Positions 3,500-23,400 of a stretch of DNA of 64,000 bases are shown piece by piece. The position numbers and the translations under genes were made by a program. The notes beneath the pieces were generated by a model that worked only from the letters and a program-made list of their open reading frames with translations, made no database searches and had not been told where the DNA came from. Each line of letters starts with the position of its first letter. The stretch's first letter is position 1. Source of the stretch: a virus (taxonomy: Duplodnaviria; Caudoviricetes); the IMG/VR virus record IMGVR_UViG_3300001580_000006, positions 32,001-96,000 of that record; one strand, written 5' to 3'.

Positions 3500-3892
3500 A
3501 TGAGGTACGAATTTATGCTATGCATTCGATGTAATCAAGACAAATCAGAATCAAATTTTCGATATGGTAGAAAGTGGTGTATAGACTGCAGAATAACTTA
3601 TAATCGACAGTGGCGACATAACAACTTAAACAAAGAAAACATACGCCGCAAGACGCTAAAGCCAAGATTAGTGGCTGAGTTTGGTGGCAAGTGTAATAAA
3701 TGCGGCGGAGTTTTTGTACCAGCTGTGTATGATTTTCATCATACTGATCCTACCGCTAAAGAATTCTCACTGCGACACGGTATTAGCAAACGTTACAGTT
3801 GGAAACGATTGTTAATCGAAGCCAGCAAGTGTATTCTACTTTGTTCTAATTGTCATCGATCTTTGCACGCTAATGACCATATCGAGTTATGA
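3500..3892 (+). CDS. HNH endonuclease (family 2)
   Basis: CxxC pairs plus GGKCNKCG...DFHHTDP..KEF...KCILLCSNCHR; paralogous to 57279..57815. Confidence 0.8.
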   Translation: MRYEFMLCIRCNQDKSESNFRYGRKWCIDCRITYNRQWRHNNLNKENIRRKTLKPRLVAEFGGKCNKCGGVFVPAVYDFHHTDPTAKEFSLRHGISKRYSWKRLLIEASKCILLCSNCHRSLHANDHIEL

Positions 3893-7488: not shown

Positions 7489-8074
7489 TAGAGGGCAATA
7501 TCAGGCTCAAAGAGGGGCCGGCCAAAACCTAGTAAAGGCGGTGGTCGGCCTTCGCCCTAAGTGCTCAGAGGAAACTAAGGCAAAAATAAGAGCGGCACTA
7601 ACTGGCAAAAGCTTTATTACAGATAGTGGTAGGGCAAGGATACGTGAGGCCAACAAAAGGCGTAAAGTTTCTCCAGAAACTAGGGCTCGGCTAAGCGCAG
7701 CGCTTATTGGAAACAAACGTAGTGCTGGTAAAAACCAAAAGCCGCACTCAACGTATTGTGGCCATAAAAATCACTTCTGGAAAGGTGGAGTTACTATTAT
7801 TAACCACGGGTTAAGACTGGCTGTAGTTGCTACTCACAAGTATGGCATATGGAGATTATCTATTTTTGTTAGAGATAGCTTTATCTGTCAGGATTGTAAG
7901 CGTAAAAATCTGCGCCTACACGCACACCATAAGAAGCATTTCCAGACTATTATTGACGAATACAACATAACCACAGTAGAGCAAGCAATAGCTTGCGAAG
8001 AACTATGGGATATAAACAACGGTATTACACTCTGCAAACGTTGTCACAGAAAGCGACATAATGCGCAACAATGA
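7478..8074 (+). CDS. HNH homing endonuclease (family 1, copy B) with NUMOD3-like repeats
   Basis: SEETKAKI and SPETRARLS repeats followed by the family-1 HNH core; ATGA overlap with the downstream gene. Confidence 0.85.
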   Translation: MADSRGQYQAQRGAGQNLVKAVVGLRPKCSEETKAKIRAALTGKSFITDSGRARIREANKRRKVSPETRARLSAALIGNKRSAGKNQKPHSTYCGHKNHFWKGGVTIINHGLRLAVVATHKYGIWRLSIFVRDSFICQDCKRKNLRLHAHHKKHFQTIIDEYNITTVEQAIACEELWDINNGITLCKRCHRKRHNAQQ

Positions 8075-11000
8075 TAAATAGGGATCCAAATAACGAGCAA
8101 CGGCAAACTAGTAGTAATCTAGTAAAGGCGGTTGCTGGTATAGGTTTTAGCTTAGTAGCCTTCACGCTTCTGGAGCGCCCGCTCAGAGGTGTGGGACTAG
8201 CTTTGTCTCAGAGGGCTGGTCTAGCAATGAAGGGTGCGTCTTCTACTTTAAGCACAGCTTGGAAAGCAGCTGCTAGCGAAGCCGTAGAGATGCCATCTGG
8301 AGTAGCCGGCACGATTGGTAGATCAGCTGCTGGCTGGAGCCGCACTGCAGAAGCGTTGGCCGCCGAGGGGCAAAAAGGCAAATACGTTCTTCCTGGTCCG
8401 GCAAGAGTTCTTGATCACTGGATGCGCGGCGCATCTGCAGAGTACTCTAACCTTAGACAAAGTGCTTCTGGGGCCTATAAATCATTTACATCTGCATGGA
8501 AGCCTGGAGGGGCTGCAGCCGAAGCTGCAACAAGAAATGTACCAGCCGAGCTACGTGAAAGAGCAACGTCTATTGGTAAGTTCAAGGCCTTCTTTGGCAA
8601 TACCAACGATAGGGGTATGCGCTGGGCCGGTGCCGGCCAGAAGTGGTTTGGTCAGTATCTCACAACCTTGCCCTCCTTCTATCTAGCTGAAAAAGCCACT
8701 GGTTTAATAACCAGACGCGAGGGCGAGTCTAAGAAGAGAGCTTTCTGGAATCTTCCAGGGCACGCTTACGATTTTGCCAAGTTTGCAGTTTCGTTTGCCC
8801 CAGGTGACCTTCTATTCCGTGGTGCTGGAAAAGCAATGAGCGCTGCTCTACATGGCGGGGCCTACAAAGTAGGTATGGCAGCCCGCACACCAGAAGGGCA
8901 GAAGATAGCAGGAAGCTTTGCTGGACTAATATCAAAAGCTGGTGACTTTGGATACAGGGTACAGCAGGCATCCAAAGCGTTTAGTGAAGGCTACCACTCA
9001 CACAACTCCTATACGAATTCTGGATCCACTGTTACTAGAGTTGCAGAAAAAGCTGCTAATGTATTTGCTGGTGCGCTGCGTGGGGCTACCAATTTCTTAG
9101 TAAAAGCTTCTGATAGCAGTATACGCCGTAAGTCCCTTTCATCTCAGGCTGCTAGCCGCCTACACGGGGCGTGGACAGAGGCCGCCTCCTTGGGTGGAAG
9201 CACTTCTGCTGCAAACCAGGCCGTAAGAATAGTTGGACGACAGGGTGGCTTATTTGAGTTTGGGCAGGTAAAGAAATATAATATGATGGAGCAGTTGCTT
9301 GGTGTTAAACAGCAGCGTCGCTCAGCAGATGATTTTATAGGGCTAGTCACCAAGGAGTATGGCCAAGGCGGCTTCGCTGATGCCGTGGCAGGGGTATTTA
9401 AGAGTGGAGCAGGTAGACGAAGCGGGTACCACGCCAACTACAGACTTCCAGGCGACTACACCCAAGGCGACCTATCTTGGATTCTACCAGAGAACTTAAA
9501 GAAGGGTGCCGCGTCGGTTCTTGCGTCTGCCTCTATTACAATACCAAAAATAGGGACGATACGCCCATTCCAGTTTATGCGCGTGCACAGCGTCCTTACC
9601 CCAAAACACTATATTGGCGGAGAACGAGACCAATACTTTGCTACGCTTGCCGAGCAGGACCCACGTCTGAAGAAAATAGCGGAAACATTCCACCCTGGCG
9701 ATCCAGCTAGTGTAGCATATAATAAAATAACAAGTGACAGTGGTATATTTTCCGGTGTTCAGGCTGAGCAACTGGGAACTCAGTTCCAGATACTTAAAGG
9801 CTGGAATCCTGGAGTTCTTCACGCAAGTAGAGGCGGCCTTACCGTGGCTGCTGGTGAAAAGTTGTTCTTTGTCAATAGTGGAGGAAAGGCTGCCACTCTT
9901 AGTGGGTTTAAAGCATTTCCAGTACAGGAACACGAACGCCGCATAATGAGCAATCTTATCTTTGGTAAAGCTGAGGATAAGTTTAAGACTACTGCCGAGC
10001 TGTCCGCAGAAAAGAGTTGGAATCCTTTACGTGGTTTGCTCGACGGTATTAATAGAAAGCTAGAGATCGGAAGATACGCCAATAAAGAAATGGCGTTTGG
10101 TGCGCACGCTCTTCCAACCGGATACCGCAATCTAACAGATAGACGATCTATTCTAAATATATTCTCAGCCGTACCTACTGATAATGCTGGCTGGGAAGCA
10201 GCTGTTGAACACTATAGGACTATTGCTGGTAGAACCCAGACTGGGGTTAGATCTAGGTCTGCTTGGTTTATCGAAGATTTAGCAGACTTAGTGCATAACA
10301 AAGAAGTACAAGACATAATAGGCAGTAAGGATGCTGGCCTAAGAAAAGCTATTACCGACGAAGCCGAGGCAGCGCGCTATTTGCGGGAGCTGTCTGTGTC
10401 ACAAACTGGCAAGGCGTCGAACCTAGTTGCAACTAGAGTTGGCTGGCTGGCCCGTGAGTTAAACGCAGATGTAGGAGCAGGAGTAGTATCATCCGGTCAT
10501 CGCGGTCTTAATCAAGGTCAGCTTGTAAGATCTGCGAGCTTATTTGCTGGCATAGAGAACCGCGCAGACAAGGCAGAGATATTTGACCAGCTGCTGTCGC
10601 TTAACAGTTTAGATAGAAGAGCAAAAGATTCTCTGCGTGTTGCCAAATTTGATGCTATGCTAGAGGATTCTCTACAGCAAAGGTTATTAGATCTAAGGGG
10701 TGACTTTACGCCGCAGAATATGCAGCGTCAAGCCTTTGAGGCACACCGCACCATCAAAGAAGCTATGATAGATAGCAACATCTCTGGCTCATTACACAGA
10801 ATGACCAAAGATAGATCTGTCAGCTTAGCGTTTGAAAACTCTAGTACGGCCATGGACTTCCTCAGCGATGAATATCGCAGGGGAAGACCCGGGTTAGCCA
10901 GTGTACTACTAGAGGACCGTGGCGCAACTAGAACAGTAATGGACTGGATAAACCCAACAGCTAGTGAGCAACTTACTAGAACCGGGTTGACCAGCCGTAT

Positions 11001-14000
11001 GTTTCTTGAGCGCTTTACCAACATTCTTGGCTTAAGGTCGGATAATGTTTCCAGCAACGCAGCATTATTTGGTAAGGTATTTACTCATAGAATTCTACCT
11101 ATGGCTGGAGCCATTTATGGGCTCAGAGCATTAGACACGTTCACCGACGCCAATCCTCTATTTGCTGGTACTATGCTAGATGAGGGTATATTTGTTGCTG
11201 CCGGCGAACAGGTTGCTAAGACACACTTGCTATCATCTAGGGTTCTGGATGCATCTGGTTTGACTCATGCTTCTAAGTGGGCAGAGGGTTTAATGCCAGG
11301 CTTTATAAACTCTCCGATGGCCCGCTTTACGCGAACAGTAGGTATGCCTTTGGCTGGGTATGGCCTAGGAATGAAATATGGTGGGCTGCATAGTGCAAAA
11401 ACAGGGCTAATAGCTGGTCTTGCATTAGATGCCACCTTAGGCTTTGGTTTAACCGATCTTACAAAGACACATGGCGAGCTGGTAGATGAATACGCCGGCC
11501 GTACAGAGGTTCCTGTCAAGAAAGGTCGTTGGTGGGAATTCGGAAAGACCCCATATGAAGGCACACAGATACAGTATTTCCGGCCGAATTGGTTTGCTAG
11601 GTTAAAGAGTCAGCATCAGTATACACCAGAAGGATTTGGCACTAAATGGGAATCGCTATTATTCCAACCAATTCCATTTATAGATGCTGCTCCTGGTATG
11701 TTAATAGAGCCAGACTGGTACGCTAGGAAGAACTACTTAACAAGACCGTATCCAGTCACATCAAATCCATTTAGCGAAGCAGCAATAGTAGGGCCTTTGG
11801 CTGGTGCTACCATTGGTAGTGTGTTAAACCCACCAAGCGTAATGCACGGGAGGGAGCTTGAATCAGCGCTAACTAATCCTGGCTCAAACGCCAACATGTT
11901 TGGCGGTACCGGGCTAGGAACTAGCGGTAACTATATGGCCGGCACACCACAAGGTGCACAAATTTCAGGGCCATCTGATTGGCAGCAGACGCTTAGTAGA
12001 CAGTTCTACTACGGCATAACCGAACCAGGTGGTTTATTTGGGTGGGCGGCTTCAAACTTGGCGGGCGGGCAGATGCCGCTAGCAAAACCAAATGAGCTGG
12101 CAAGCGCTACAGCAGCACAATCCCAGATTAAGAGGTTTTGGGATCTGAACCTTGGCGGATTTGGTCTCCTTAGCGAACCAATTCGTAGGCTACTTCCTAG
12201 AGAGCTGGCCGCCATCAACAAGATTAACCCAATAATGAATACAATGGCCGACTGGCTACCAGAGAATATGCAGCGAGGTGATCAGTTTGCTTCCATGCCT
12301 GAGGGATCGTTGCGGCTGCCTGGCACTGGTTATGAGACAATGCGTGCCGTAACGCATGCGTTTCCATCTCGTGAATCCCAGCTTGGCAAATCAATGTCTG
12401 AGATTGTGCAAGGTATGCTTGGTATGCCACAATCTATGTCTGAAGAACAAGAAGAAATAATGTCTGGTGGCACTGAAATTCACAGACAGATACAAGAGGA
12501 GCTAACTAGGCAAAACCTTGCTGTAGCAATAGAACAGAACATATATGACCCGTACCACGATATATCTGGTACAGCTGACTTAATACTAAGATATGGTCGT
12601 GAGCAAGCTGTTGGCGAAATCAAGACAAAATCTTTAGAAGCTATGCAGAAACTGTCGGGTCCGCAACAGTCGCACATGAGCCAGCTCAACTTCTACTTAC
12701 ATACTACAAAGATGCGTCGTGGATTCCTTATTTATGCAGCCAGAGAAGACCCGTCAGTGCGCAAAGTGTACGAGTTCAATTATTCTCGTAATATGTTTGA
12801 GCGTGATATGGCAAAGGTTGAGCAGGCTAGAGCTGCGGCAGCTGATTTGCTGACCACCGTTCCAACAACGCACGGAGCATCCTACTCCCACGCCGACCGT
12901 CTAAAGATTCTCGCTGACGTAGCACCAACCTCTGACCAGTACTACAGAGAATTGATGATGACTACAAAGCAGAGCAAGATGGGGCTAATGTCACCAGAGG
13001 AGCAGTACACATACGAGACTGCGTTAAAGCAGCGCAATAGCCAAATGCGCGGCATGGACTTGTATCCAAATAGGTTCCTTGGGAAGATGATGAGCCCAGA
13101 GGCTACTTATAATCTGCAGTCTGAGAACACTAACATTAAGGCTGCCTCCGAATATAATATAGCCGAACGAGCTATGGGTGCTGCCTGGGAAGGACTTCAG
13201 GCTGTGCCAAACCCGCTATCAACCAAGTTCTTTAACTATCAGACACCCGAACAGGCATATCAGCGAGCTCAGATGTATGGCAATCTGGAGCAATCCTGGG
13301 ATCACCCAGTACGTAGCTTTGTTACACCATATGGTCAAAGGTTTCTTGGTTCTAGCAATCCAGTATCAGGTGCTTGGAGAGGAGGTATGGCTGGCTTTCT
13401 GATGGGCGGTCCTGCCGGCGCTGCACTGTTAGGAAGCATGGGTGCTATGTATGGTGGCGGTTATAGTGCTGTAAAGGCCACTACTGGGTGGTCATACCTG
13501 CCAAGCGAAGTTAAAAAAGAACGTGCTTTAAATCAGACATTTGATAGGCTAGCTTTTGCGAAAGGCATGGTGGACAATCAAATGACGGGCAGCCCAGAGT
13601 CGTTTGAGATGGCGCAAAATACCTATACTGCGTGGAACACTGGTAGGTCTAGCTCAATGGCTAACTTTATGAGAGCTACTCCGCACCAGGAACGACAATT
13701 TATGGGGGCGTTTATTAATACCACCGATCCTGCCGAGCGCAATAGAATATTAAAGATGTTGCCTACTCCAGCCGCCGAGGGCTTAGAGCGTGTATGGAAT
13801 AACCAAGAAGGAGCCAGCTTTGCATCACACTCCGGAGCAGAAGACTATGTCGCCTCCCAAGGCATGATGAACCAAGCAAGAAACTGGCAGGCTTTCACTC
13901 CACAGACTATGCAGGCTACCAAAGTTAAGATGATTAAAAACGAAGGGCTGAAGGTCCAAGACTTTGGTCTTGGCTACGCGTCACAACTATATGGTGTACA

Positions 14001-14256
14001 AAACAACCCAAACGTTCCAGATTCTATGAACCTAAGTGATCCGCTAGGGGTGGGGGCTGCCCCATCGGTGCAGTTTGACTCAGTCCAAATTAAGAGACAA
14101 ATAGAGCAGATGCTTATTAATAGGGGTGCTAGAAGCATACAAGTATCGGTCAATGAAGTATCTGGCGTAGAGGCCAGAGGAACTCTCACTATTAACTGTC
14201 GCCAAGATAGAACACAAGACATGCTATCTGTGTTGAGATCAACGAGCAATGATTAA
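8071..14256 (+). CDS. Giant tape-measure/ejection-like virion protein with an internal PD-(D/E)XK (Cas4/RecB-like) nuclease domain
   Basis: 2061 aa, Ala/Gly-rich with glycine-zipper hydrophobic segments, at the tape-measure position. GTEIH...IEQ...SGTADL...GEIKT...QLNFYL...GFLIY lies at ~12470-12740. Confidence 0.7.
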   Translation: MINRDPNNEQRQTSSNLVKAVAGIGFSLVAFTLLERPLRGVGLALSQRAGLAMKGASSTLSTAWKAAASEAVEMPSGVAGTIGRSAAGWSRTAEALAAEGQKGKYVLPGPARVLDHWMRGASAEYSNLRQSASGAYKSFTSAWKPGGAAAEAATRNVPAELRERATSIGKFKAFFGNTNDRGMRWAGAGQKWFGQYLTTLPSFYLAEKATGLITRREGESKKRAFWNLPGHAYDFAKFAVSFAPGDLLFRGAGKAMSAALHGGAYKVGMAARTPEGQKIAGSFAGLISKAGDFGYRVQQASKAFSEGYHSHNSYTNSGSTVTRVAEKAANVFAGALRGATNFLVKASDSSIRRKSLSSQAASRLHGAWTEAASLGGSTSAANQAVRIVGRQGGLFEFGQVKKYNMMEQLLGVKQQRRSADDFIGLVTKEYGQGGFADAVAGVFKSGAGRRSGYHANYRLPGDYTQGDLSWILPENLKKGAASVLASASITIPKIGTIRPFQFMRVHSVLTPKHYIGGERDQYFATLAEQDPRLKKIAETFHPGDPASVAYNKITSDSGIFSGVQAEQLGTQFQILKGWNPGVLHASRGGLTVAAGEKLFFVNSGGKAATLSGFKAFPVQEHERRIMSNLIFGKAEDKFKTTAELSAEKSWNPLRGLLDGINRKLEIGRYANKEMAFGAHALPTGYRNLTDRRSILNIFSAVPTDNAGWEAAVEHYRTIAGRTQTGVRSRSAWFIEDLADLVHNKEVQDIIGSKDAGLRKAITDEAEAARYLRELSVSQTGKASNLVATRVGWLARELNADVGAGVVSSGHRGLNQGQLVRSASLFAGIENRADKAEIFDQLLSLNSLDRRAKDSLRVAKFDAMLEDSLQQRLLDLRGDFTPQNMQRQAFEAHRTIKEAMIDSNISGSLHRMTKDRSVSLAFENSSTAMDFLSDEYRRGRPGLASVLLEDRGATRTVMDWINPTASEQLTRTGLTSRMFLERFTNILGLRSDNVSSNAALFGKVFTHRILPMAGAIYGLRALDTFTDANPLFAGTMLDEGIFVAAGEQVAKTHLLSSRVLDASGLTHASKWAEGLMPGFINSPMARFTRTVGMPLAGYGLGMKYGGLHSAKTGLIAGLALDATLGFGLTDLTKTHGELVDEYAGRTEVPVKKGRWWEFGKTPYEGTQIQYFRPNWFARLKSQHQYTPEGFGTKWESLLFQPIPFIDAAPGMLIEPDWYARKNYLTRPYPVTSNPFSEAAIVGPLAGATIGSVLNPPSVMHGRELESALTNPGSNANMFGGTGLGTSGNYMAGTPQGAQISGPSDWQQTLSRQFYYGITEPGGLFGWAASNLAGGQMPLAKPNELASATAAQSQIKRFWDLNLGGFGLLSEPIRRLLPRELAAINKINPIMNTMADWLPENMQRGDQFASMPEGSLRLPGTGYETMRAVTHAFPSRESQLGKSMSEIVQGMLGMPQSMSEEQEEIMSGGTEIHRQIQEELTRQNLAVAIEQNIYDPYHDISGTADLILRYGREQAVGEIKTKSLEAMQKLSGPQQSHMSQLNFYLHTTKMRRGFLIYAAREDPSVRKVYEFNYSRNMFERDMAKVEQARAAAADLLTTVPTTHGASYSHADRLKILADVAPTSDQYYRELMMTTKQSKMGLMSPEEQYTYETALKQRNSQMRGMDLYPNRFLGKMMSPEATYNLQSENTNIKAASEYNIAERAMGAAWEGLQAVPNPLSTKFFNYQTPEQAYQRAQMYGNLEQSWDHPVRSFVTPYGQRFLGSSNPVSGAWRGGMAGFLMGGPAGAALLGSMGAMYGGGYSAVKATTGWSYLPSEVKKERALNQTFDRLAFAKGMVDNQMTGSPESFEMAQNTYTAWNTGRSSSMANFMRATPHQERQFMGAFINTTDPAERNRILKMLPTPAAEGLERVWNNQEGASFASHSGAEDYVASQGMMNQARNWQAFTPQTMQATKVKMIKNEGLKVQDFGLGYASQLYGVQNNPNVPDSMNLSDPLGVGAAPSVQFDSVQIKRQIEQMLINRGARSIQVSVNEVSGVEARGTLTINCRQDRTQDMLSVLRSTSND

Positions 14257-17200
14257 ATATAGTCAACGAAATCGTACATATCATAAGGACGACAAGAAGC
14301 TTTACCATATAGGCTTCTCTGCTGCTGGGCTTGGCCTAACAGCCTTTAGTGCGTGGTCTGGCTATAAGTACTTTATGCAGAAGTACGCAACCTCTTCCAT
14401 TGGCGTGGCTGGCTTTATTAACCATATGCGCAGCAACGTTACCAACATGGTGAGGCAGACTGTTGCTCCAAGCGGAGCTAAGGTTAGCAAAATAAGGTCC
14501 CCTTATATGATGGCTACTAGAGCGCTGCACCCAGAAATCAATAAATTGCATGATGTCGCCGTCGCCGTCCGCAGTAGAGTAGTGGTGGAGTCTTCTGAAA
14601 AACAACTAAGCAACTACTACTCACAGATTGCTAAGATAGTTAAGAAATACAACCTCAACATGACACTAGATGAAATTCGTACTGTCGTTGAGGAGTCGGC
14701 TGCTAATACACAACGCAACGCTTATAATTATATAAATGTTGGTTGGGAAAGCGTTTCTGTTGCTGATTCAAAGAAGAACGCAGCCAAGAGATTTCTACGA
14801 ACAATCGAAGAGTCAATCGAGGCCCCAAAGGCTAAGTTTAGAATGAATAGATATCGCCTATCTAATTATGATGAAGCAGTTAGAACTGGCGAACCACTAC
14901 AACGTAGTGTAGAATTTAAAAAGCATTGGTGGAGGCAATATAAGGATGAACTCAGCACCACTATACTAGCTGGTAGGCAGTCAATTACCGCCACCTCTAT
15001 TGGCAGAACTGCTGGACTTATATATGACAAGGAGGGCGATAAAGCCATAGGTTCTCTGGCAGAACCATTCCGTGCATCTATTGAGCAAGCCTTGGGGCTA
15101 GCTAAACGCACATCACTTACTGGGCAGTCAGGCACAGAGTTTATAAAGCAATATACTAGTGAGCTAGAGGCTAGGCAGTATGCGTTACGAGGAGTTGTTG
15201 GGTCGAGCATAGAAACTGGCACCAAAGATGGATATAACCTGCAGTCTATTATTAATCGAATGAAATCCAATCTAAATAGTCTGAAGAACTATAGACCAGA
15301 TGGCGTGCCAGTAATTGGCGATTATAACATAGAGGCCGTAGAGATGAAGGATGGCTATCGCTATCTAAAACTTACTATTGACGATAGCCCATATTATTTT
15401 GGCCTAACCAAGAAGAGAGGGTTTGACTTCAAGCGTTCTCCTTTTGCTATGGAGACCGACTTATCGCGTCTTACGTATGGCGCTAAAATGGGTACAACTG
15501 CCTCAGAACTAGAAATACTTAGAGACGTGACTGAGAGATTGAATTCACTTCCAGGCCAAATATTAGGTGAACGAAATAGACTATCTGAGAAGACGGGTCT
15601 TGATAAAGTATTTGACAAGTCCAACCTGCGGCTAAAAGTAAAAGATATATTAAACAGAACGCTGAAGTTTGATAGACATGAGACAGGAAGGGAAGCTACA
15701 AACTTCCAGTTTAATACCCGTGCTATGTCTAGAGCAAACGTTGCCCAAGATTGGTTTGGGCGGGTTATGACCGCACACAGCAACAACCCATCTAGGCTTA
15801 CTGAATCTCTAAAAACTATAATGGAGCTAGCTTCAGATAAGTCTAAGGTGGCTACAATAGATATCGAGACCGACATAAGCTCAAAAGGTAAGCCCATAAC
15901 CAAACTTGCTGTATACAAAGAGGGTGCAGCGCCGCTGGTTCTATACACCGAAGCGTTTGGAAAGCAAAGTGCTGAAGCCTATATGCTAACCCAGGGAGGC
16001 ATGGAAATAAAGAACGCCGGCACTAGAGCAGTATTACAGGTAAGAGACGCCCACTATATGGCTCTTGAGAAAGCAGGAGTTGTTAGCAAAAGCACCACGG
16101 CTATGGCACAACAGGTGCAGGATTATCTAAAAGGTGTTTCGACAGTTACATACCATGGTGGTAAAATCGGCGACATCACCCAGTTGGCGGCTGCAGGAAT
16201 TAACTTACAAGGCAAGTATAAGACAGTTGATAGCTACAAGCTAGCAAAATCGTTTGATTTGGGAAGCAAGTCTCTACAGGCTTTGATGGATCTGCACGTT
16301 ACAGAACAAGAATTTGCAGAGATACAACTACAAGCTGAAAATGGGATAATGAAGCATCTTCCAGGAGAAGTACGTGGAAAAGTGCAAGCACACCTCCACC
16401 AACCTGAAATAGATGCCATGGTTACTCATAAATATATGTTTGGCCGTAAGGGCGTAGTTAACCAAGTATTAACGGAGCTTCTTGGTAGCTCAACATACAC
16501 AAATGCCCAAATTGGGGAACTTAGAGCCGTACTTGGCGAGGGGTTTGCCACTACTGAGCTGCTGGCCAAGATTAGACAAAGGGTTGGAGCAAAGATGGCG
16601 TCGCTGTCATACTTAAGCTCTACCGGTAAGAAACAGAAGGCGCAGACTATACTTAATTTAAGATCACCTATGACTGCGCCACAGGTAACTGCACAGTTTT
16701 TTAAAGACCACCATCCGATAATAGTTAATGAAAAGCTTGCTGGAAGGATGAGAATAACCGGACTATCCTCCGCCTTTTCTATACTTGAGGATGGGTCTAT
16801 TAATGAGTCTCAGGCTAGTCGTCTATATGAAAGACTAGCAAAACCAGGCATGAGCCAGATGTTCACCGGTGATGCAATTAAGTCAGACGTTATGACTATC
16901 ATAGGCCACCCCGGAATGCAGTTAGGCGGTGCTGTTGTTTCTAAGACTGCTGCTAAATCATTGATGCCTGTAGTAGAGCACACTGTAGATTTGGAGCCAG
17001 GCGACTCGCTATCAGGATTTGTTATAGATTATCAAAAGCTAATTAACAAGCCATCACGCACACAAGCCGACGAATTGCGCTTGTCAGATCTTGGTAGAGA
17101 GTTAAAGCGTGGATTTGCTAAGCGCGCCAATATATCAGACGAGGACCTGGTGGCCAACTTTGACAACATCACTTTCGATATTGGAACCAAAGAAGGAGGG

Positions 17201-20194
17201 CTACCGAGGGTATCGCTGCAGACACCGGTTGGTATAGAGGGCAGCTCCATAATTATGCAGCGCGGTAAGTTTACATTATCCCCGGCCAACAAACAGTTTG
17301 ATGCACTTTTCAGATACTCACGGCGCAAATATGGCCACGAGGCAGCACTGGCCGTTGGCGGAGAATTCGGCCGTACAAACTCCATGCAGCTATTTATTGA
17401 GGGAACTGCAATGAACGCAGTTGCCTCTGGTAGAGACTCTACGAGCAGACAGGTCAGGGACAAAACTGCAGCAACTATGAGGTTACTTCGTAAGGTAGAA
17501 AGAAACCCAGATGACCTCGATTCCTACCAGAAACTTCTTCAAACTACTAAGGATCTACGTAAAGAACTAGGCCTGAGATATACTGCTACTAATAATCTAG
17601 GATCGGCGGAAGAGAAGCAGATGCTAAGACAGCACTTCCAGTTACCTGAATCTGATGCTCGTTGGGACAAGATTGTTGATACCTTGGTAAACGATAAGGC
17701 TGGTGAAGGTGTTATTCTAGAGCGTTTTGCGCAGAAGGGTTCGAAGCCGCTATACTACGCGTTGCAGTCGGAGTTATGGAAAACAAAGAGTCCACCGTGG
17801 TTTCAACTTTATGCTAACGAAGGAAACGTTAGGGCTGGTATTAAAATCACCAATGACATGTTGGTTGGTTTGCAAAATACGCACATGGTATCATACTTGA
17901 AAAGCCAGCTGGGGCAGACTAGAGAGTATCGTGAGATAGCCAACCTTAACGACGTTATGCGCAAGATGGGCGTAAGCGCCCGCGGCAACAGTGGCGGAAT
18001 GATGGCTCAACTCAGCACTGCGGCAGAAATGCCAGAGAATGCTGGCTTCTTCCAAGATGTCACTGATAGAATAAATGGTATGATACATCAGGTTAGGGAG
18101 GGCGGTGCCAGGGGCTCTGACATTATTAAAGCACGAAATGAATTGCTCGACGAAATACTGAAGGCCGGCAAGGTTCCAATATATACTGCACCAGGAATTA
18201 AGGTTCCAGTAGTGGTTAGCAATTTGGTAAACCCTGATCCTGTTGGCAACGTCCACCTTGGCGAAGGAGCCAGGACCTTATATAGTGCTATGAGCGAGGC
18301 TATTACTAGCCACAACGGTAGAGTTATTGACTGGGCCGAGAACGCGTCTATGGTACTTCCAAGGGCTCTTAATGAATACGGAGACTGGCTAAAAGATGTA
18401 ATTAAATCCGGTCGTCAGCTTGAGGGATCATACATGCCCGGCTTTGCTGCAAAGCCTATGGCTGATGTAAACTTCTATGATAAGGTAAAGACCGGTCAGT
18501 CGCCATTCACTATTGGTGTTGGAAAGAAAGAATGGAACACTATAGAGAAGCATTTTGGCAACCCAGCAGACCTAAAGTCTTGGCTGTTTCGTTACCCCAC
18601 CACTGGCTCCCCAAGCATTGTAAATTTCGTTCAAGCTGAGGCCGAGTCAGGCATATTTGTAAATCCTGTGCTAGAACTACTAATGAATATAGACACCGAT
18701 GATGATAAAATTTATACATCAATTTACTCTAAGAAACTCGACCAAGAAGCAATTAGTTCACTAGAAAAAGAAATAGCCGGCCTAAGTGGCGACAGCACTA
18801 GATTACCTATTGCAAAGAGGGAACTATTTAACATAAAACGACATATGGGTAGAATGGAGAAGGAGCTTAGTCGTCGCTCCATTACGCAGGCTCAGCAGTA
18901 TAATCACCTAGTCCGTACCTTTGAAAGGTCCAATGCAACCACCGCAGAGGGAATCCTTGCCGAGATGCAGGGAGCATATACGCAATTTGCAGGAAAGGAA
19001 TATAATATACTGCAGACAGTGGCGGCCTCTCGTCTGCCAGTTGTGCCACTGGTTGGTAACGAACTAGGTATGTTTGATACCGAGTCAGGCAGGCTTATAA
19101 CTAAGAGGTTCCAAGGTACCACAAATGCTGCAATATTTGGTGTGTCTAAGTCACACGCCCGGGCACTAAAAAGTATAGCCTCTAGAGCAGGGATGACGGC
19201 TAGTGAAGAGATTGTTAGGGCAGCCGCTGGCTTTGAGGACCCAGTAATAGAGGCATTGCGCACCCAAGGCTTGATTGGGCAATATACCAACGTAATGACT
19301 AATCTTACAGATTTGTACGGTTCTATGCGCAGAAACCCAGAAGCGCGTTGGGGCCTACTAACCTCCTGTAGGTTAGATGGTGAGACTATGGGTGATGCCA
19401 GCAAAAGGTTCAATACTGACATTGAGCTACTTCGTACTATGACAGATCTTCGAGAAGATGTCATAAAGCAAGTGAAGGGTAATGATCAACAGAAGTTAGG
19501 AACCTATCGTCAGATGGTTAATAAGCTGTCTAAAATAGGTACTAGTGAGAAGCTAGCTGAAGGCGGCGAGCCATGGCTCGAAGAATTGGCTGGACAGTTT
19601 GGCCCAAATGCCGAGAAAATGATTGAGGCTATGAATAGAGTCAACCGCGTGCTCTATGCTCATACTGGTGGAGCAGGAGTTAGAGATAAACTATTTGGTC
19701 GCCCTCTATACAACGAACTCGGTGAACGTATGTTTATGAAGGACTTTACAGAATTATCTGCTGGCTCCATTATGGCAAAGAAAGTCGAAGAGCAGGCGTC
19801 TAAGTCGAAACTTAAACTACCCAGAGAGGTAGCTATAGGTTTGGGTGTTCTTGGCCTAGTTAAGTTCTTCTCCCCCAATCAGATGAAGGTGTTGGGTGAA
19901 ATGCCTGGACAAGGCGGAGAGTTGTGGGACTACAGAAGCGGTAAGTCAGAACTACCATTCTTTACCCCAGTAGATGTGCCGCAATATACCTGGGAGTCTG
20001 ATGCCAGGGTATCTGGAATTGGCCTATCGGACCGTTTTAATAAGATAGCGGCATCTATTATACCAAAGATCCGTCGTGGATACGGAGATCACTCTAATGC
20101 CAGAACAGCTAGCAACGTTACTTATGACAATCGTCGACGCCTAAGTAGCCGGTTTGATTCTAAGTCGGTGTGGCAGGACGTCAATAGATTCTAA
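14249..20194 (+). CDS. Giant virion protein: putative single-chain two-barrel RNA polymerase fused to a DEDDh 3'-5' exonuclease
   Basis: Beta'-like barrel IGVGKKEW...WLFRYPTTG...GIFVNP....MNIDTDDDKIY (about 18431-18727). DEDDh motifs IDIET / HGGKIGD / HQPEID (15860-16414). Hydrophobic segments near both ends. Confidence 0.65.
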   Translation: MIKYSQRNRTYHKDDKKLYHIGFSAAGLGLTAFSAWSGYKYFMQKYATSSIGVAGFINHMRSNVTNMVRQTVAPSGAKVSKIRSPYMMATRALHPEINKLHDVAVAVRSRVVVESSEKQLSNYYSQIAKIVKKYNLNMTLDEIRTVVEESAANTQRNAYNYINVGWESVSVADSKKNAAKRFLRTIEESIEAPKAKFRMNRYRLSNYDEAVRTGEPLQRSVEFKKHWWRQYKDELSTTILAGRQSITATSIGRTAGLIYDKEGDKAIGSLAEPFRASIEQALGLAKRTSLTGQSGTEFIKQYTSELEARQYALRGVVGSSIETGTKDGYNLQSIINRMKSNLNSLKNYRPDGVPVIGDYNIEAVEMKDGYRYLKLTIDDSPYYFGLTKKRGFDFKRSPFAMETDLSRLTYGAKMGTTASELEILRDVTERLNSLPGQILGERNRLSEKTGLDKVFDKSNLRLKVKDILNRTLKFDRHETGREATNFQFNTRAMSRANVAQDWFGRVMTAHSNNPSRLTESLKTIMELASDKSKVATIDIETDISSKGKPITKLAVYKEGAAPLVLYTEAFGKQSAEAYMLTQGGMEIKNAGTRAVLQVRDAHYMALEKAGVVSKSTTAMAQQVQDYLKGVSTVTYHGGKIGDITQLAAAGINLQGKYKTVDSYKLAKSFDLGSKSLQALMDLHVTEQEFAEIQLQAENGIMKHLPGEVRGKVQAHLHQPEIDAMVTHKYMFGRKGVVNQVLTELLGSSTYTNAQIGELRAVLGEGFATTELLAKIRQRVGAKMASLSYLSSTGKKQKAQTILNLRSPMTAPQVTAQFFKDHHPIIVNEKLAGRMRITGLSSAFSILEDGSINESQASRLYERLAKPGMSQMFTGDAIKSDVMTIIGHPGMQLGGAVVSKTAAKSLMPVVEHTVDLEPGDSLSGFVIDYQKLINKPSRTQADELRLSDLGRELKRGFAKRANISDEDLVANFDNITFDIGTKEGGLPRVSLQTPVGIEGSSIIMQRGKFTLSPANKQFDALFRYSRRKYGHEAALAVGGEFGRTNSMQLFIEGTAMNAVASGRDSTSRQVRDKTAATMRLLRKVERNPDDLDSYQKLLQTTKDLRKELGLRYTATNNLGSAEEKQMLRQHFQLPESDARWDKIVDTLVNDKAGEGVILERFAQKGSKPLYYALQSELWKTKSPPWFQLYANEGNVRAGIKITNDMLVGLQNTHMVSYLKSQLGQTREYREIANLNDVMRKMGVSARGNSGGMMAQLSTAAEMPENAGFFQDVTDRINGMIHQVREGGARGSDIIKARNELLDEILKAGKVPIYTAPGIKVPVVVSNLVNPDPVGNVHLGEGARTLYSAMSEAITSHNGRVIDWAENASMVLPRALNEYGDWLKDVIKSGRQLEGSYMPGFAAKPMADVNFYDKVKTGQSPFTIGVGKKEWNTIEKHFGNPADLKSWLFRYPTTGSPSIVNFVQAEAESGIFVNPVLELLMNIDTDDDKIYTSIYSKKLDQEAISSLEKEIAGLSGDSTRLPIAKRELFNIKRHMGRMEKELSRRSITQAQQYNHLVRTFERSNATTAEGILAEMQGAYTQFAGKEYNILQTVAASRLPVVPLVGNELGMFDTESGRLITKRFQGTTNAAIFGVSKSHARALKSIASRAGMTASEEIVRAAAGFEDPVIEALRTQGLIGQYTNVMTNLTDLYGSMRRNPEARWGLLTSCRLDGETMGDASKRFNTDIELLRTMTDLREDVIKQVKGNDQQKLGTYRQMVNKLSKIGTSEKLAEGGEPWLEELAGQFGPNAEKMIEAMNRVNRVLYAHTGGAGVRDKLFGRPLYNELGERMFMKDFTELSAGSIMAKKVEEQASKSKLKLPREVAIGLGVLGLVKFFSPNQMKVLGEMPGQGGELWDYRSGKSELPFFTPVDVPQYTWESDARVSGIGLSDRFNKIAASIIPKIRRGYGDHSNARTASNVTYDNRRRLSSRFDSKSVWQDVNRF

Positions 20195-20233: not shown

Positions 20234-20428
20234 ATGTTGAACATCGTAATTTCTTGTGGGTATGATGGCGATGCTGGGGCTTTAGCCTCAGCGATTGCAG
20301 ACTACATTAGGTCGCAAAGTGGCCAGGACATAACTGTTCGTGTAAATACACTTGATGACCCAAACACCGTGTCCAAGATAGCTGCACTAAACGCAGCACA
20401 ACTAGTTAAACGGAGACCCAATATTTAA
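20234..20428 (+). CDS. Small hypothetical protein (64 aa)
   Basis: Fills the gap between the promoter and the hub gene; TAATG coupling with 20428. Confidence 0.55.
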   Translation: MLNIVISCGYDGDAGALASAIADYIRSQSGQDITVRVNTLDDPNTVSKIAALNAAQLVKRRPNI

Positions 20429-23400
20429 TGGCATTTAAAGGCAAAGATAGTAGCAACGTACGCTGGGCAAGCCTACATGCAGTTCTAAAAGATAAGCTTA
20501 CTAAGCTCGAAGAACTTGTCAGCAAAGACGTCGATATGCCTCAGTTCCAAATAACTGACGGCCTTCGCACTATTCGCGAGCAGGCAGAGCTGTATGCTAA
20601 GGGCCGCACTAAGCCAGGTACTATAGTAACGTATGCGAAAACCCCACAGGCCCACGGGTTTGGTTTAGCCGTAGACGTAGTTCCACTTAAGGATGGTAAG
20701 AAGGACTACAACAACAAATCCGCTTACGATAAGTTAGCAGCCTATGCAACACAAGTTGGATTAAGATCTGGGCATAATCAGCCGTTTAAGAAGAAAGACG
20801 GATCTCTTTTTTATGACCACCCTCACATAGAGGTGTGGAACTGGAATACATATGTAGATAAAAACGCACAGCTCATCGGTGATGAGTTTGTATTTGACTC
20901 CAACGTACAGCAGAACCTTGATGTATATAGCCAGAATGGATTCTTCACAGACGCTAATTCTACCACTGTTTATGGTCTAGGTGCGTACGGCGACGCCATA
21001 ACATCGAAAGTAGATGTGTTGGTAGAAGATGATGCCTATTTCTATGAGGCTGTATCTAGCGCCAATGCTTATAAGGACGGTGCGTTTAGATTTGGCGATG
21101 TGTGGCTGTCCGTTCCACCAACAACCATAGATATAGCCAGCTTTTCAGCAAACCAAGAAATACCTGCATTTCGTACTCCTGGCAACCCAACTAAGCAGGG
21201 TGATCTTAGGGAGATGCGGTTTGATGTGCAGATGATATTTCCGCACGCCCAGACTATCAACGGCGAGCTAAGACCACTTATTGCACAGTTCTTTGCATCA
21301 CCCATTATTAGTGTTGAGAACCAGTTTGTGCAGATGGCTGCTGCTCCAGACATACAGCCAGCAGAAAGTGAAGTTAACTATGAACTAGAAAAGCAAACTA
21401 GTGCAGCTGACCTTACTGGTGCTAACTTCGCTACGGAGATCGACGCCTGGCAAAAGACGCAGGCAGATAATGCCAAGCTGTTTAGGGAAGGCAAATTTAA
21501 GGAACTAATAGATAAGTTTGACGGTGTGCCCAAATCGGAGAAGGAGCAGGTTGATCGTCTAATAGCCAAAGCCAAGAAAGACAGGAAGGTTCGATATTCT
21601 AGGTATGGGTGGGCGCTCAATGATGAACCACTTTTGTTTTGTTTCAAAGAATTACACATAAATACTGTATCAGGTTTTCCATCAGCTATTCAGGCACACG
21701 CCGTACTAAACTTGTTTAACTCACGCCCATTTTGCAAGCAAGTAGCGTGGCTAAAGGATTGGAGTGACGTCTCTGCACAGCTAACATACGGCGATCAACT
21801 TAAAAGTTGCTTACGTGAGGCTAAGGACGCAAGTACTGTAGAGCCCCCTGTAGTAAATCATGTATCTAGCCCAGAATTCTCAACTCCTTATAAAGACTAT
21901 TACTCTCATTGGCTTATAGAAGGCAAGGCTCTGCGCGAGGCTGATGGGCACACAGTGCCACCACTTAGTTCTAGCTTGAGTTCACCGCTACACCAAACCC
22001 TTGGAATGCTGTATCTAGACGAGTTTGATAATACCAACTTTGTCAATAACATTGTGATGTCTTGGCGAGGCGCGTCAAAAAGTATGCTTCAGTCAGAGCT
22101 GGAAAGAATTCGTAATACCAAAAACCGCCTTGTTAAAATTAAGGCTCAATTGTTAGATTATAGGGCAAAAGACTTTCCTGATATATCTAGTGGTTTTAGG
22201 GATGGTATAGCTGCTCTGTGGAAAACTCCAGCACTGTTAAAGCAATATTTTGATAGAGTGGTAGAAAAAACTGGTGGTCTTGTTTGGATAACAGCCGCAA
22301 CCTTAAAGGGTGATCTTGGGTTTAACAGCAAAGACGCAGAAGATAAATTCAAAAAATACTTTGTCAACACTACCGGCATAACAGCTTATGATTTGTATCA
22401 ATACGTAACTACTAAGGTTGAGGATAAAGACAAGCGCTGGCTTCTTACTAGGCTAACTGATCTCGTACTTCGAAGTAACACCACCCAGGAGCACGCCAAG
22501 ATAATAGATCAGTGTATTGAGCTTTCCAATGAAGCCGATAAACAACTCGGTGTATATAAAGATGGCGCCAGTTCTATCCACAGTATAGACCTATCAGAAT
22601 ACAGCGGCACGACCATATCTGGTATGTCAGCTAGCATAGCAAATAAATTTGCTAGAATACCGCTGTTGTCTGAGTTCATACCTACTTATCAACACATGGG
22701 TAGGTCAAACATTAGTGTTACAATGAGTCTTCAGACAGAAAATCTGGAGATAGTATCTGAGCTGCGCAGGCTAGAACTGGAGACATCTATAGCTCAGCAG
22801 ATGAGAGACCTTATTACGCCAATAGAGTTACAAAAGTTTATTCCAGGAAGTGTAGTCGCTGTTACTGGTAATGCGTTCTTTAGCATGTTAGGTGTACATA
22901 ACGTAGTGGTTGGCAATGTTCAAACCTCCACTGTTCCTAATAGACCAGGACTGTGTAACGTAACTATTGAATTTATTCAAGCAGACTATGTTCTTCACGA
23001 ACACGAGCAAATTCAACCATATAATATACTTCCAGCTAATCTTGTTGCTATCACAGCAAAAAGTATTCTTGATGCCGGTGATACAAAGGTAGTTGGCTGG
23101 CTTAATACGATTAAGAATTCTAAACCTGATTTATACAATCAGTTAGACTGGGAAGTAATGCCAGCATATAATGGGGTATTGGATCTTATTAAAGAATATG
23201 GGCAGCAGATAAATTATGATGTTGTTAATAAACTAACTACTGAGGCTACAGCCACAGCACCGCCATCCACAAAATCTAATGTATTATCTATAAGTGGCAC
23301 AACAAGCGACAATTTTTGGCAGAGTGCCGTAGAAAGAGCAGAACAGGCAACGCCACGCCCATATACTATTGGATCTGAACTTAAGAAAGTAAATACTTTA

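What the first reader, a model, noticed from the sequence alone, without database searches (positions are those of the whole stretch)
15851..16420. Intact DEDDh 3'-5' exonuclease fused N-terminal to the RNAP-like region
Seen: ExoI IDIET (D538, E540), ExoII YHGGKIGD (D642), the intervening VDSYKLAK...SLQAL, and ExoIII HQPEID (H717, D722). All catalytic positions of DnaQ/RNase T-type enzymes are present. I know of no standard two-barrel RNAP with a covalently attached DEDD nuclease. It could proofread or trim transcripts, resect the injected genome end to expose ssDNA template, or degrade host nucleic acid or defence signals (inference).
Basis: partly seen in the sequence, partly recalled or inferred. 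Interest (0 to 1): 0.7.

Follow-up and report, generated by a model that had tools for sequence, protein, structure and literature searches.

The report
Exonuclease-like motifs in giant tail protein
A 1,981-residue protein encoded where this 223-kb contractile-tailed phage should have its tail "tape measure" carries the five catalytic residues of a 3'-5' exonuclease; related phages have a clearer exonuclease in the same gene slot, but here no statistical or structural test could confirm the domain.

Summary

The protein is an orphan, with no hit in Pfam, PHROGs, NCBIfam, PDB sequences or two billion-scale protein searches. Its neighbours are clear orthologues of Bacillus phage 0305phi8-36 gp145 and gp147. 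It therefore sits in the gp146 ("hypothetical tape measure", a virion protein) slot.

I found DEDDh domains in the same-slot giants of four other phage lineages:
- Moorella MTATph1 CDS0027 (Pfam RNase_T)
- Bacillus WH1 gp095
- KLEB27-3 gp034
- 0305phi8-36 gp146

None is annotated as an exonuclease in its record. WH1 and KLEB27-3 also carry an RYPT...DxDGD RNA-polymerase loop like this protein's FRYPTT...NIDTDDD.

The same block model that finds those domains scores this one at chance. hhalign, HMMER and Smith-Waterman give nothing, and AlphaFold2 failed (pLDDT 37). The ExoII Asn and aromatic residue and the ExoIII Ala-Leu are missing.

Verdict: probably (about 0.65) a strongly diverged copy of a lineage-wide exonuclease module. 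"Intact" is unproven.

This scan has already noted exonuclease plus RNA-polymerase giants on other genomes. I found no paper describing them.

The parts
14249..20194 (+). Gene for P0001, a 1,981-aa orphan giant protein in the tape-measure slot of the tail module. Its ATG overlaps the stop of the upstream giant (AATGATTAA).
   Evidence: ORF list and translation. No relatives found. Flanked by BLAST-significant orthologues of 0305phi8-36 gp145 and gp147. Synteny.
15845..16438 (+). Candidate DEDDh-like exonuclease module, residues about 533-730.
   Evidence: Motifs. Language-model neighbours are all 3'-5' exonuclease families at 0.85-0.88, a lead only. Not significant by any profile or alignment test. 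AlphaFold2 pLDDT 37.
15857..15871 (+). ExoI-like IDIET (D538, E540), preceded by KVAT.
   Evidence: A de novo MAFFT alignment puts D538/E540 in the ExoI column of 10 known domains, but such matches are common in controls.
16151..16174 (+). ExoII-like YHGGKIGD (D642). It lacks the family's Asn and aromatic residue. Its length matches the one-residue-longer ExoII of the phage giants (GQNVVGFD).
16226..16285 (+). VDSYKLAK and SLQAL blocks. They resemble the hDTxxLAR and SLxxL blocks between ExoII and ExoIII.
   Evidence: Block scores +2.4 to +4.8 bits. Aligned to the DT block by MAFFT.
16397..16414 (+). ExoIII-like HQPEID (H717, D722), followed by AMVT (compare KLEB27-3 HFGLSDAKVT). Pro and Glu replace the conserved Ala/Gly and Leu/Met.
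Evidence: Alignment.
18404..18427 (+). KSGRQLEG (1386-1393), a possible basic motif of the second (beta-like) polymerase barrel. Compare WH1 and KLEB27-3 AKMDMSGRF[HR]I[EQ]G.
   Evidence: Motif level only; inference.
18590..18706 (+). RYPT (1448-1451) followed by NIDTDDD (1480-1486), a beta-prime-type double-psi barrel catalytic loop signature.
   Evidence: WH1 gp095 and KLEB27-3 gp034 have NRYPTI...ADHDGD / ADYDGD with sub-threshold Pfam PF00623 hits. A BLAST sub-alignment to the catalytic loop of 0305phi8-36 orf99 has E 0.65. The fold is not confirmed.
14306..14368 (+). N-terminal Gly/Ala-rich hydrophobic segment (about residues 20-40).
   Evidence: Sequence. Below a Kyte-Doolittle cut-off of 1.6.
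19829..19870 (+). C-terminal Gly-rich hydrophobic segment VAIGLGVLGLVKFF (1861-1874), about 110 residues before the end. The same feature occurs in gp146, P0003 and WH1 gp095.
   Evidence: by eye. An HMM of the relatives' C-termini does not reach significance.
8071..14256 (+). Upstream giant (2,061 aa), orthologue of 0305phi8-36 gp145 and Moorella CDS0026. It has a Cas4 / PD-(D/E)XK-type nuclease domain at residues 1447-1567.
20428..27099 (+). Downstream giant (2,223 aa), orthologue of 0305phi8-36 gp147 (hub plus lysin), Moorella CDS0032 and WH1 gp094. It has an N-terminal peptidoglycan peptidase domain.

Best explanation
P0001 is this phage's version of the fast-evolving giant protein encoded between the gp145-like and gp147-like (hub/lysin) giants of 0305phi8-36-type contractile-tailed jumbo phages. 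That is the slot assigned to the tape measure, a virion protein in 0305phi8-36.

Same-slot proteins in four other phage lineages carry a DnaQ-type (DEDDh) 3'-5' exonuclease module. Residues about 533-730 of P0001 are most likely a strongly diverged descendant of that module. It keeps the five metal- and water-binding residues (D538, E540, D642, H717, D722) but has lost the ExoII Asn and aromatic residue and the ExoIII Ala-Leu.

Inferred mechanism: the protein is assembled in the tail lumen and leaves the virion ahead of or with the DNA. The nuclease module then acts on 3' ends at the entry site. It may act on the leading end of the phage genome or on host nucleic acid, next to the Cas4-type nuclease of the neighbouring giant. 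It is not a proofreader for the polymerase-like core that lies 750 residues downstream in the same chain.

Shown: the letters, the gene slot, and exonuclease modules in the relatives. Inferred: homology of this copy, its activity, virion location and ejection.
For: 1. Slot. The flanking giants are BLAST-significant, collinear orthologues of gp145/CDS0026 (E 1e-30, 2e-19) and of gp147/CDS0032/WH1 gp094 (E about 1e-15). Gene order is sheath, tube, tube paralogues, giant, giant, giant, baseplate, as in 0305phi8-36, Moorella MTATph1, WH1 and KLEB27-3. gp146 is a mass-spectrometry-verified virion protein assigned as tape measure (record note; PMC2147016).

2. Exonuclease modules in same-slot relatives:
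- Moorella CDS0027 hits Pfam RNase_T at E 5.4e-5, 24.2 bits, at the cut-off (25.5 bits).
- My block model gives WH1 gp095 51.2 bits against a null of 1.2 +/- 4.6 (0 of 200 shuffles).
- KLEB27-3 gp034 scores 17.5 bits (1 of 200 shuffles).
- gp146 scores 59.6 bits with relaxed gaps against a null of 17.7 +/- 6.1 (0 of 100).
- A profile of the five domains hits the exonuclease domain of RB69 DNA polymerase (E 0.005), over the stretch of the profile that holds ExoII.

3. P0001 is the only protein of the phage with the pentad pattern. The expected chance count for a protein of this size is about 0.01.

4. An independent language-model search of residues 515-745 returns only 3'-5' exonuclease families among the named neighbours (PF13482, PF01612, PF18136). 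Scores are 0.85-0.88, and 9 of the 10 best family-bearing hits share a family or clan with the best of them.

5. VSTVTYHGGKIGDITQL aligns without gaps to Moorella VDVLAGQNVVGFDIPQV, with the giants' unusual one-residue-longer ExoII. KTIMEL upstream of ExoI matches the giants' QTIQNM / QGLMNM. DAMVT matches KLEB27-3 DAKVT.

6. The low-confidence AlphaFold2 secondary structure has three N-terminal strands (535-540, 550-555, 564-567) and then helices that start at D642 and at P719, two residues after H717. This is roughly the DEDDh order.
Against: No test gives significance:
- Pfam, NCBIfam, PHROGs and PDB sequences give nothing.
- hhalign against DEDDh profiles, including the giants' own, gives probability below 1%.
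- HMMs that include the giants give E 1.5 at best.
- Smith-Waterman z-scores are 2-3 at best, and the window ranks 50th of 580.
- The block model that finds the relatives' domains scores this one at chance.
- Alignment of catalytic columns by MAFFT is matched by about 10% of shuffled or unrelated windows.

The ExoII Asn and aromatic residue are absent, as is the ExoIII small-hydrophobic pair. Both are present in all 14 reference domains I compared.

The fold is not predicted (pLDDT 37).

P0001 shows no sequence similarity to any same-slot relative. Orthology therefore rests on position only. Domain content of these giants is fluid: the exonuclease is N-terminal in WH1 and KLEB27-3 and central in gp146 and Moorella.
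Confidence: 0.65

Rival explanations
1. Chance motif set. Residues 533-730 are just another part of a fast-evolving, largely helical tape-measure-slot protein. DxE, D and Hx4D fall at DEDDh-like spacing by accident, so there is no exonuclease fold here.
For: - The bare pentad is expected 0.31 times per shuffled proteome.
- No profile, pairwise or fold support exists.
- The family's ExoII Asn and aromatic residue and ExoIII Ala-Leu are missing.
- The language-model hits share only 105-116 of 256 features. The tool says this range fits chance hits or distant relatives.
Against: - The motif falls in the one protein of the genome whose positional counterparts in four lineages carry this very domain.
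- For one protein of this length the chance expectation is about 0.01.
- The extra DT, SL and DA-VT blocks and the giants' ExoII length are also matched.
- All named language-model neighbours are exonucleases.
Confidence: 0.25
2. Real but dead domain. The region descends from the lineage's exonuclease module but has lost activity and now serves only as a structural or spacer part of the tail-lumen protein.
For: - Loss of the ExoII Asn and aromatic residue and of the ExoIII Ala-Leu.
- Extreme divergence, such that the model which finds the relatives fails here.
- Giant 1 may hold a second, clearly inactivated exo-like remnant. That similarity is weak: z = 6.5, not significant after correcting for the number of comparisons.
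Against: A decayed domain would not be expected to keep all five catalytic residues while almost everything else changed. Retaining D538, E540, D642, H717 and D722 argues for selection on catalysis. This is inference and cannot be tested without relatives.
Confidence: 0.25
3. Transcript-proofreading or transcript-trimming nuclease. It would work in cis with the downstream two-barrel RNA-polymerase core.
For: - Exonuclease-like and polymerase-like motifs lie in one chain in P0001, WH1 gp095 and KLEB27-3 gp034.
- A TMP-fused virion RNA polymerase is established in Thermus phage P23-45 gp96 (PMC10770324).
Against: - 0305phi8-36 gp146 and Moorella CDS0027/P0003 have the exonuclease without any DxDxD loop.
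- 0305phi8-36 keeps its polymerase as a separate non-structural gene, orf99.
- The P23-45 paper does not mention an exonuclease; the word occurs 0 times in its text.
- From my own knowledge, two-barrel polymerases cleave backtracked RNA in their own active site.
Confidence: 0.1

Closest known systems
DnaQ-like DEDDh 3'-5' exonucleases (Pfam RNase_T PF00929: E. coli Pol III epsilon, RNase T, ExoI, ExoX, oligoribonuclease)
   Same: The five catalytic residues occur in the same order and at similar spacing. There is a hydrophobic strand before DxE. The DT-like and SLxxL-like blocks lie between ExoII and ExoIII.
   Different: No significant profile match. The ExoII Asn and aromatic residue and the ExoIII Ala-Leu are absent. 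The module is embedded at residues 533-730 of a 1,981-residue tail-module protein rather than in a small enzyme or a polymerase subunit. The fold is not confirmed.
Exonuclease modules of same-slot giants: Moorella phage MTATph1 CDS0027 (and its relative P0003), Bacillus phages vB_BceM_WH1 gp095, vB_BauM_KLEB27-3 gp034 and 0305phi8-36 gp146 (found here; none is annotated as an exonuclease in its record)
   Same: Same gene slot between orthologous giants, and similar protein size. A Gly-rich hydrophobic segment lies about 110 residues before the C-terminus in gp146, P0003 and WH1 gp095. The ExoII is one residue longer than canonical. WH1 and KLEB27-3 also have the RYPT...DxDGD loop.
   Different: Their modules are recognisable (Pfam, or 17-60 bits in the block model) and keep GQN/GYN...[FY]D and H-x-[AG]-[LM]-x-D (ExoIII is not clearly placed in gp146). 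P0001's module is not recognisable and does not keep them. P0001 shares no detectable sequence similarity with any of them.
Thermus phage P23-45 gp96, a tape-measure-fused virion two-barrel RNA polymerase (PMC10770324)
   Same: A giant tape-measure-slot protein that carries a nucleic-acid enzyme and is proposed to pass through the tail. It has a DxDxD loop and membrane segments.
   Different: It is a siphovirus protein of 5,002 residues with the polymerase at the N-terminus. No exonuclease is reported. P0001's polymerase nature is only at motif level and lies C-terminal to the exo-like region. There is no sequence similarity.
crAss-like phage phi14:2 gp66 and SPbeta YonO / 0305phi8-36 orf99 (single-chain two-barrel RNA polymerases)
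   Same: Single-chain polymerases with an R-x-P...DxDxD loop. A short BLAST sub-alignment links P0001 1421-1488 to the orf99 catalytic loop (FRSP...ADTDGDKV against FRYP...IDTDDDKI).
   Different: That alignment is not significant (E 0.65). There is no PF05183 or orf99 homologue anywhere in this genome. None of these enzymes is reported with a DEDD nuclease.

Membership tests
DEDDh (DnaQ-like) 3'-5' exonuclease | ExoI: D-x-E at the end of a hydrophobic strand | tested here: met
   KVATIDIET with D538 and E540. Block score +1.8 to +4.7 bits.
DEDDh (DnaQ-like) 3'-5' exonuclease | ExoII: N-x2-3-[FY]-D | tested here: not met
   YHGGKIGD has the Asp (D642) but no Asn and no aromatic residue. All 14 reference domains, including the phage giants, have the Asn.
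DEDDh (DnaQ-like) 3'-5' exonuclease | ExoIII: H-x4-D, in the context H-x-[AG]-[LM]-x-D-[AVT] | tested here: inconclusive
   H717 and D722 are present and followed by AMVT. Positions +2 and +3 are Pro and Glu. Block score in this register is -6.4 bits.
DEDDh (DnaQ-like) 3'-5' exonuclease | Significant match to a family profile | tested here: not met
   Pfam and NCBIfam give nothing up to E 10. No PF00929 or PF13482 match in the whole genome. hhalign probability below 1%. HMMER E 1.5. The block model scores at chance.
DEDDh (DnaQ-like) 3'-5' exonuclease | RNase-H-like alpha/beta fold with the five residues at one site | tested here: inconclusive
   AlphaFold2 without an alignment gives mean pLDDT 37. 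No relatives exist to build an alignment.
DEDDh (DnaQ-like) 3'-5' exonuclease | Metal-dependent 3'-5' exonuclease activity | not testable with these tools
   Needs a biochemical assay.
Tape-measure-slot giant of 0305phi8-36-type myoviruses (gp146-like) | Encoded between the gp145-like and gp147-like giants, downstream of sheath, tube and chaperone genes | tested here: met
Tape-measure-slot giant of 0305phi8-36-type myoviruses (gp146-like) | Detectable sequence similarity to gp146 or other slot proteins | tested here: not met
   PMC2147016 reports the same lack of similarity between gp146 and its BtI1/BwK1 counterparts, apart from the last 60 residues.
Tape-measure-slot giant of 0305phi8-36-type myoviruses (gp146-like) | Presence in the virion | not testable with these tools
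   Mass spectrometry exists only for 0305phi8-36 (record notes). WH1 and KLEB27-3 are annotated as structural proteins.
Single-chain two-barrel RNA polymerase | Beta-prime-type barrel with R-x-P and a DxDxD metal loop about 35 residues later | tested here: inconclusive
   R1448-Y-P1450 and D1482-T-D-D-D1486 are present. The same signature in WH1 and KLEB27-3 gets sub-threshold PF00623 hits (E 0.09 and 0.015). There is no Pfam hit for P0001 itself. In the AlphaFold2 model the barrel part has pLDDT below 50.
Single-chain two-barrel RNA polymerase | Second barrel with the conserved basic residues | tested here: inconclusive
   Only a motif resemblance: KSGRQLEG against WH1/KLEB27-3 AKMDMSGRF[HR]I[EQ]G.

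The most novel reading that the evidence does not exclude
Jumbo myoviruses of the 0305phi8-36 type load their tail lumen with a giant "tape measure" that is really an enzyme carrier. It would hold an active 3'-5' exonuclease and, in this phage and the WH1/KLEB27-3 group, a single-chain two-barrel RNA polymerase. Both would be ejected with the DNA and together prepare and transcribe the leading genome end, next to a Cas4-type nuclease on the neighbouring giant. No paper I could search describes an exonuclease in such a protein.
Probability: 0.3. Interest if true: 0.8.

Novelty: new variant of a known kind. Interest (0 to 1): 0.5.

Why it matters
Enzymes fused to tape measure proteins are known: muralytic domains, and the RNA polymerase of Thermus phage P23-45. 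A nuclease is not among them.

If the exonuclease module of these same-slot giants is active, it points to a nucleic-acid processing step at DNA entry in contractile-tailed jumbo phages. Such a step has not been described. It can be tested in cultured phages (0305phi8-36, WH1, KLEB27-3, Moorella MTATph1), where the protein is a known or annotated virion component.

For this window alone the gain is smaller. It shows how far such a module can drift, and that motif reading by itself cannot settle it.

Tried and rejected
**Searches for relatives of P0001. All were empty.**
- Pfam, PHROGs, NCBIfam and PDB sequences.
- The 5.8-billion-protein word search over the whole length.
- Exhaustive phmmer of residues 500-1699 against 1.84 billion representatives, which found only a fragment of the same protein.
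- tblastn against phages and a scan of viral contigs.

**Searches for relatives of the Moorella and WH1/KLEB27-3 proteins, to bridge to P0001.**
- These gave one homologue (P0003) and otherwise nothing.
- The genome-contig scan with DnaQ returned only close enterobacterial copies and was of no use.

**Structure.**
- AlphaFold2 without an alignment failed for 500-770 (pLDDT 37).
- It also failed for 1395-1560. Only a C-terminal helical hairpin is confident and the barrel region is below 50.
- I did not search fold libraries with these models, because such matches would be meaningless.
- I did not fold P0001 on an alignment of known DEDDh proteins. That would impose the fold and test nothing.

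**Statistics that gave no support.**
- hhalign, local and global.
- Small HMMs and Smith-Waterman with shuffles.
- Two versions of a 10-block chain model.
- MAFFT --add with shuffled and real-window controls.
- HMMs of the relatives' C-termini and polymerase cores against this proteome.

**Other points.**
- A clean hhalign of WH1/KLEB27-3/gp146 against five E. coli DEDDh domains gave only a local ExoII match (E 0.008, probability 5%). The 99.7% result is inflated by shared sequences and should be ignored.
- Rejected idea: that "PLVLYTEAFG" (562-571), which hhalign and the block model prefer as ExoI, is the true first motif. It lacks the Asp, and the chain built on it has none of the catalytic residues.
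- No complex prediction was run, because no binding claim is made.
Full report
**What is there**

The window is bases 32001-96000 of a 223,464-bp virus record. ORF 14249-20194(+) encodes a 1,981-residue protein, P0001.
- IDIET, residues 537-541
- YHGGKIGD, 635-642
- VDSYKLAK, 660-667
- SLQAL, 675-679
- HQPEID, 717-722

The downstream NIDTDDD lies at 1480-1486. The start codon overlaps the stop of the preceding giant gene.

**Context**

The surrounding genes form the tail module of a contractile-tailed phage. The order is sheath, tube and tube paralogues (PHROG 9206, mislabelled "major head protein"), several HNH homing endonucleases, three giant ORFs of 2,061, 1,981 and 2,223 residues, then baseplate genes.

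The same layout occurs in four cultured phages:
- Bacillus phage 0305phi8-36: gp145, gp146 "hypothetical tape measure protein", gp147. The record notes mark gp145 and gp146 as virion proteins by mass spectrometry; gp147 carries no such note.
- Moorella phage MTATph1: CDS0026, CDS0027, CDS0032.
- Bacillus phage WH1: gp096, gp095, gp094.
- Bacillus phage KLEB27-3: gp033, gp034, gp035.

BLASTP shows that the first window giant is a collinear orthologue of gp145 (E 1e-30) and CDS0026 (E 2e-19). The third is an orthologue of gp147, CDS0032 and WH1 gp094 (E about 1e-15). P0001 hits nothing, so it is the positional counterpart of gp146.

The 0305phi8-36 comparative paper notes that this gene diverges beyond BLAST recognition even between relatives, and assigns it as tape measure mainly from tail length (PMC2147016).

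P0001, gp146, P0003 and WH1 gp095 all have a Gly-rich hydrophobic segment about 110 residues before the C-terminus. This was seen by eye only. An HMM of those C-termini does not reach significance.

**P0001 is an orphan**

- No Pfam, PHROGs, NCBIfam or PDB-sequence match.
- No hit in the 5.8-billion-protein search.
- Only its own fragment in the exhaustive 1.84-billion search with residues 500-1699.
- Nothing in the phage records or viral contigs.

**Direct tests of the exonuclease reading**

I built reference sets of genuine DEDDh domains. They comprised five E. coli paralogues, 30 diverse proteobacterial domains and the Moorella pair.

| Test | Result |
|---|---|
| hhalign | Probability below 1% |
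| HMMER | Nothing |
| Smith-Waterman | z at most 3.2 |

In leave-one-out controls the block model recovers the Moorella domain at 74-81 bits, RNase T at 72 and ExoI at 37-54. It misses ExoX, so its reach is limited.

A de novo MAFFT alignment places D538, E540, H717, D722 and the DT-block Asp in the right columns. The controlled version of that test shows that about 10% of shuffled or unrelated windows do as well.

A bare pentad pattern is expected 0.31 times per shuffled proteome. With the DT block added it occurred in none of 200 shuffled proteomes, but that pattern was defined after the fact.

AlphaFold2 without an alignment gives pLDDT 37. Its secondary structure (three strands, then helices that start at D642 and at P719, two residues after H717) is compatible with the fold but proves nothing.

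A language-model feature search of residues 515-745 returns only 3'-5' exonuclease families among its named neighbours (PF13482, PF01612, PF18136). Scores are 0.85-0.88 with a low count of shared features. By the tool's own calibration this is a lead, not evidence.

Two family features are missing. The Asn and the aromatic residue of ExoII are absent (HGGKIGD against HNxxFD or GQNxxxFD). The small-hydrophobic pair after the ExoIII His is also absent (HQPEID against H-x-[AG]-[LM]-x-D).

**Indirect evidence from the same gene slot**

While comparing the slot proteins I noticed an ExoII-like string in Moorella CDS0027. Pfam confirms an RNase_T domain there (E 5.4e-5, 24.2 bits, at the cut-off; 25.5 bits), with textbook LDLETT, GQNVVGFDI and HEALTDV.

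The block model then found DEDDh modules in three more slot proteins:

| Protein | Residues | Score (bits) | Null |
|---|---|---|---|
| WH1 gp095 | 105-375 | 51.2 | 1.2 +/- 4.6; 0 of 200 shuffles |
| KLEB27-3 gp034 | 91-365 | 17.5 | 1 of 200 shuffles; all five catalytic residues present |
| 0305phi8-36 gp146 | from 1218 (ExoI to ExoII 1218-1452; ExoIII uncertain) | 59.6 with relaxed gaps | 17.7 +/- 6.1; 0 of 100 shuffles |

The gp146 module contains YLDIETTGL and GMLAGQNVADAD.

A profile of the five modules hits the exonuclease domain of RB69 DNA polymerase, over the stretch of the profile that holds ExoII, at E 0.005. A clean profile-profile comparison with E. coli DEDDh enzymes gives only a local ExoII match (E 0.008). 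The relatives' domains are therefore well but not overwhelmingly supported.

They share an ExoII that is one residue longer than canonical. P0001's VSTVTYHGGKIGDITQL aligns to Moorella VDVLAGQNVVGFDIPQV without a gap.

None of these modules is annotated as an exonuclease in the records. I found no paper that mentions an exonuclease in a tape-measure-slot or two-barrel polymerase protein.

**The polymerase-like part**

WH1 gp095 and KLEB27-3 gp034 give sub-threshold Pfam hits to RNA_pol_Rpb1_2 (E 0.09 and 0.015). The hits lie at NRYPTI...KADHDGD / KADYDGD.

P0001 has FRYPTT, and 34 residues after R1448 the loop NIDTDDD. Upstream it has KSGRQLEG, which resembles their AKMDMSGRF[HR]I[EQ]G. A non-significant BLAST sub-alignment (E 0.65) links the same stretch to the catalytic loop of 0305phi8-36 orf99, a YonO-type polymerase.

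The genome has no separate orf99 or PF05183 homologue. The fold could not be predicted. The "RNAP-like region" is thus plausible at motif level only. A precedent for a tape-measure-fused virion polymerase exists in Thermus phage P23-45 gp96 (PMC10770324).

gp146 and Moorella CDS0027/P0003 have the exonuclease but no DxDxD. This argues against a dedicated proofreading role for the nuclease.

**Weighing**

- For one protein of this size the bare pentad is expected about 0.01 times by chance.
- It lies in the one gene whose positional counterparts carry this domain in four lineages.
- Several extra blocks and an unusual ExoII length also agree.
- Against this, every formal test fails, and two conserved second-shell features are gone.

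My estimates:
- About 0.65 that residues 533-730 descend from the lineage's DEDDh module.
- About 0.4 that the module is still an active exonuclease. Keeping all five catalytic residues in an otherwise unrecognisable sequence favours activity; the missing Asn and aromatic residue argue against it.
- About 0.25 that it is a chance pattern.

**Earlier notes of this scan**

Notes on other genomes describe exonuclease plus two-barrel polymerase giants in tape-measure slots. One of them gave me the P23-45 reference, which I then read myself. They agree with the picture but were not used as evidence. The kind of thing is therefore not new to this scan, although I found no publication of it.

Noticed in passing
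window 12409-12771 (giant 1, residues 1447-1567): The upstream 2,061-aa giant, an orthologue of 0305phi8-36 gp145, carries a Cas4 / PD-(D/E)XK-type nuclease domain (phrog_1706 E 7.4e-17; phrog_2506 and phrog_298 'exonuclease'). Two neighbouring tail-module giants may therefore both carry nucleases.
   Followed up: partly
window 10192-10425 (giant 1, residues 708-785): This stretch shows local similarity (Smith-Waterman 67, z = 6.5 against shuffles) to the second-strand, third-strand and insert region of the KLEB27-3 gp034 exonuclease module. The position matching ExoI reads NIFSAVPT, with no Asp or Glu. It is not significant after correcting for about 2,900 comparisons. It may be a dead exo-like remnant.
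   Followed up: partly
L007:14624-22237 (0305phi8-36 gp146, from residue 1218), L120:1862-9409 (WH1 gp095, residues 105-375 and 1958-2000), L121:2070-9374 (KLEB27-3 gp034, residues 91-365 and 1893-1937): Cultured Bacillus jumbo phages have DEDDh exonuclease modules in their tape-measure-slot virion proteins that are not annotated as such in the records. WH1 and KLEB27-3 also have an NRYPTI...AD[HY]DGD polymerase loop with weak PF00623 hits.
   Followed up: partly
L008:15513-21026 (Moorella phage MTATph1): The exonuclease-bearing CDS0027 (1,309 aa) ends just before a transposase gene (CDS0028). Its 71%-identical relative P0003 continues for about 200 more residues, including the C-terminal hydrophobic segment. 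The Moorella gene therefore looks interrupted by an insertion element.
   Followed up: no
window 3500-3892, 5795-6310, 7478-8074, 27707-28393, 28855-29376: Five HNH or homing-endonuclease ORFs are interleaved with the tail tube paralogues and lie just after the third giant. That is an unusually dense load of mobile nucleases in a structural module.
   Followed up: no
window 1591-2304, 2349-3371, 3954-5798: Three ORFs hit PHROG 9206, named 'major head protein'. By position, and by the 0305phi8-36 record notes for gp140 and gp141, they are tail tube protein and paralogues. The PHROG name is misleading.
   Followed up: partly
whole genome G000: There is no PF05183 match and no homologue of the 0305phi8-36 YonO-type polymerase orf99 anywhere in the 223-kb record. 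If this phage has its own polymerase, the P0001 motif region is the only candidate seen.
   Followed up: partly
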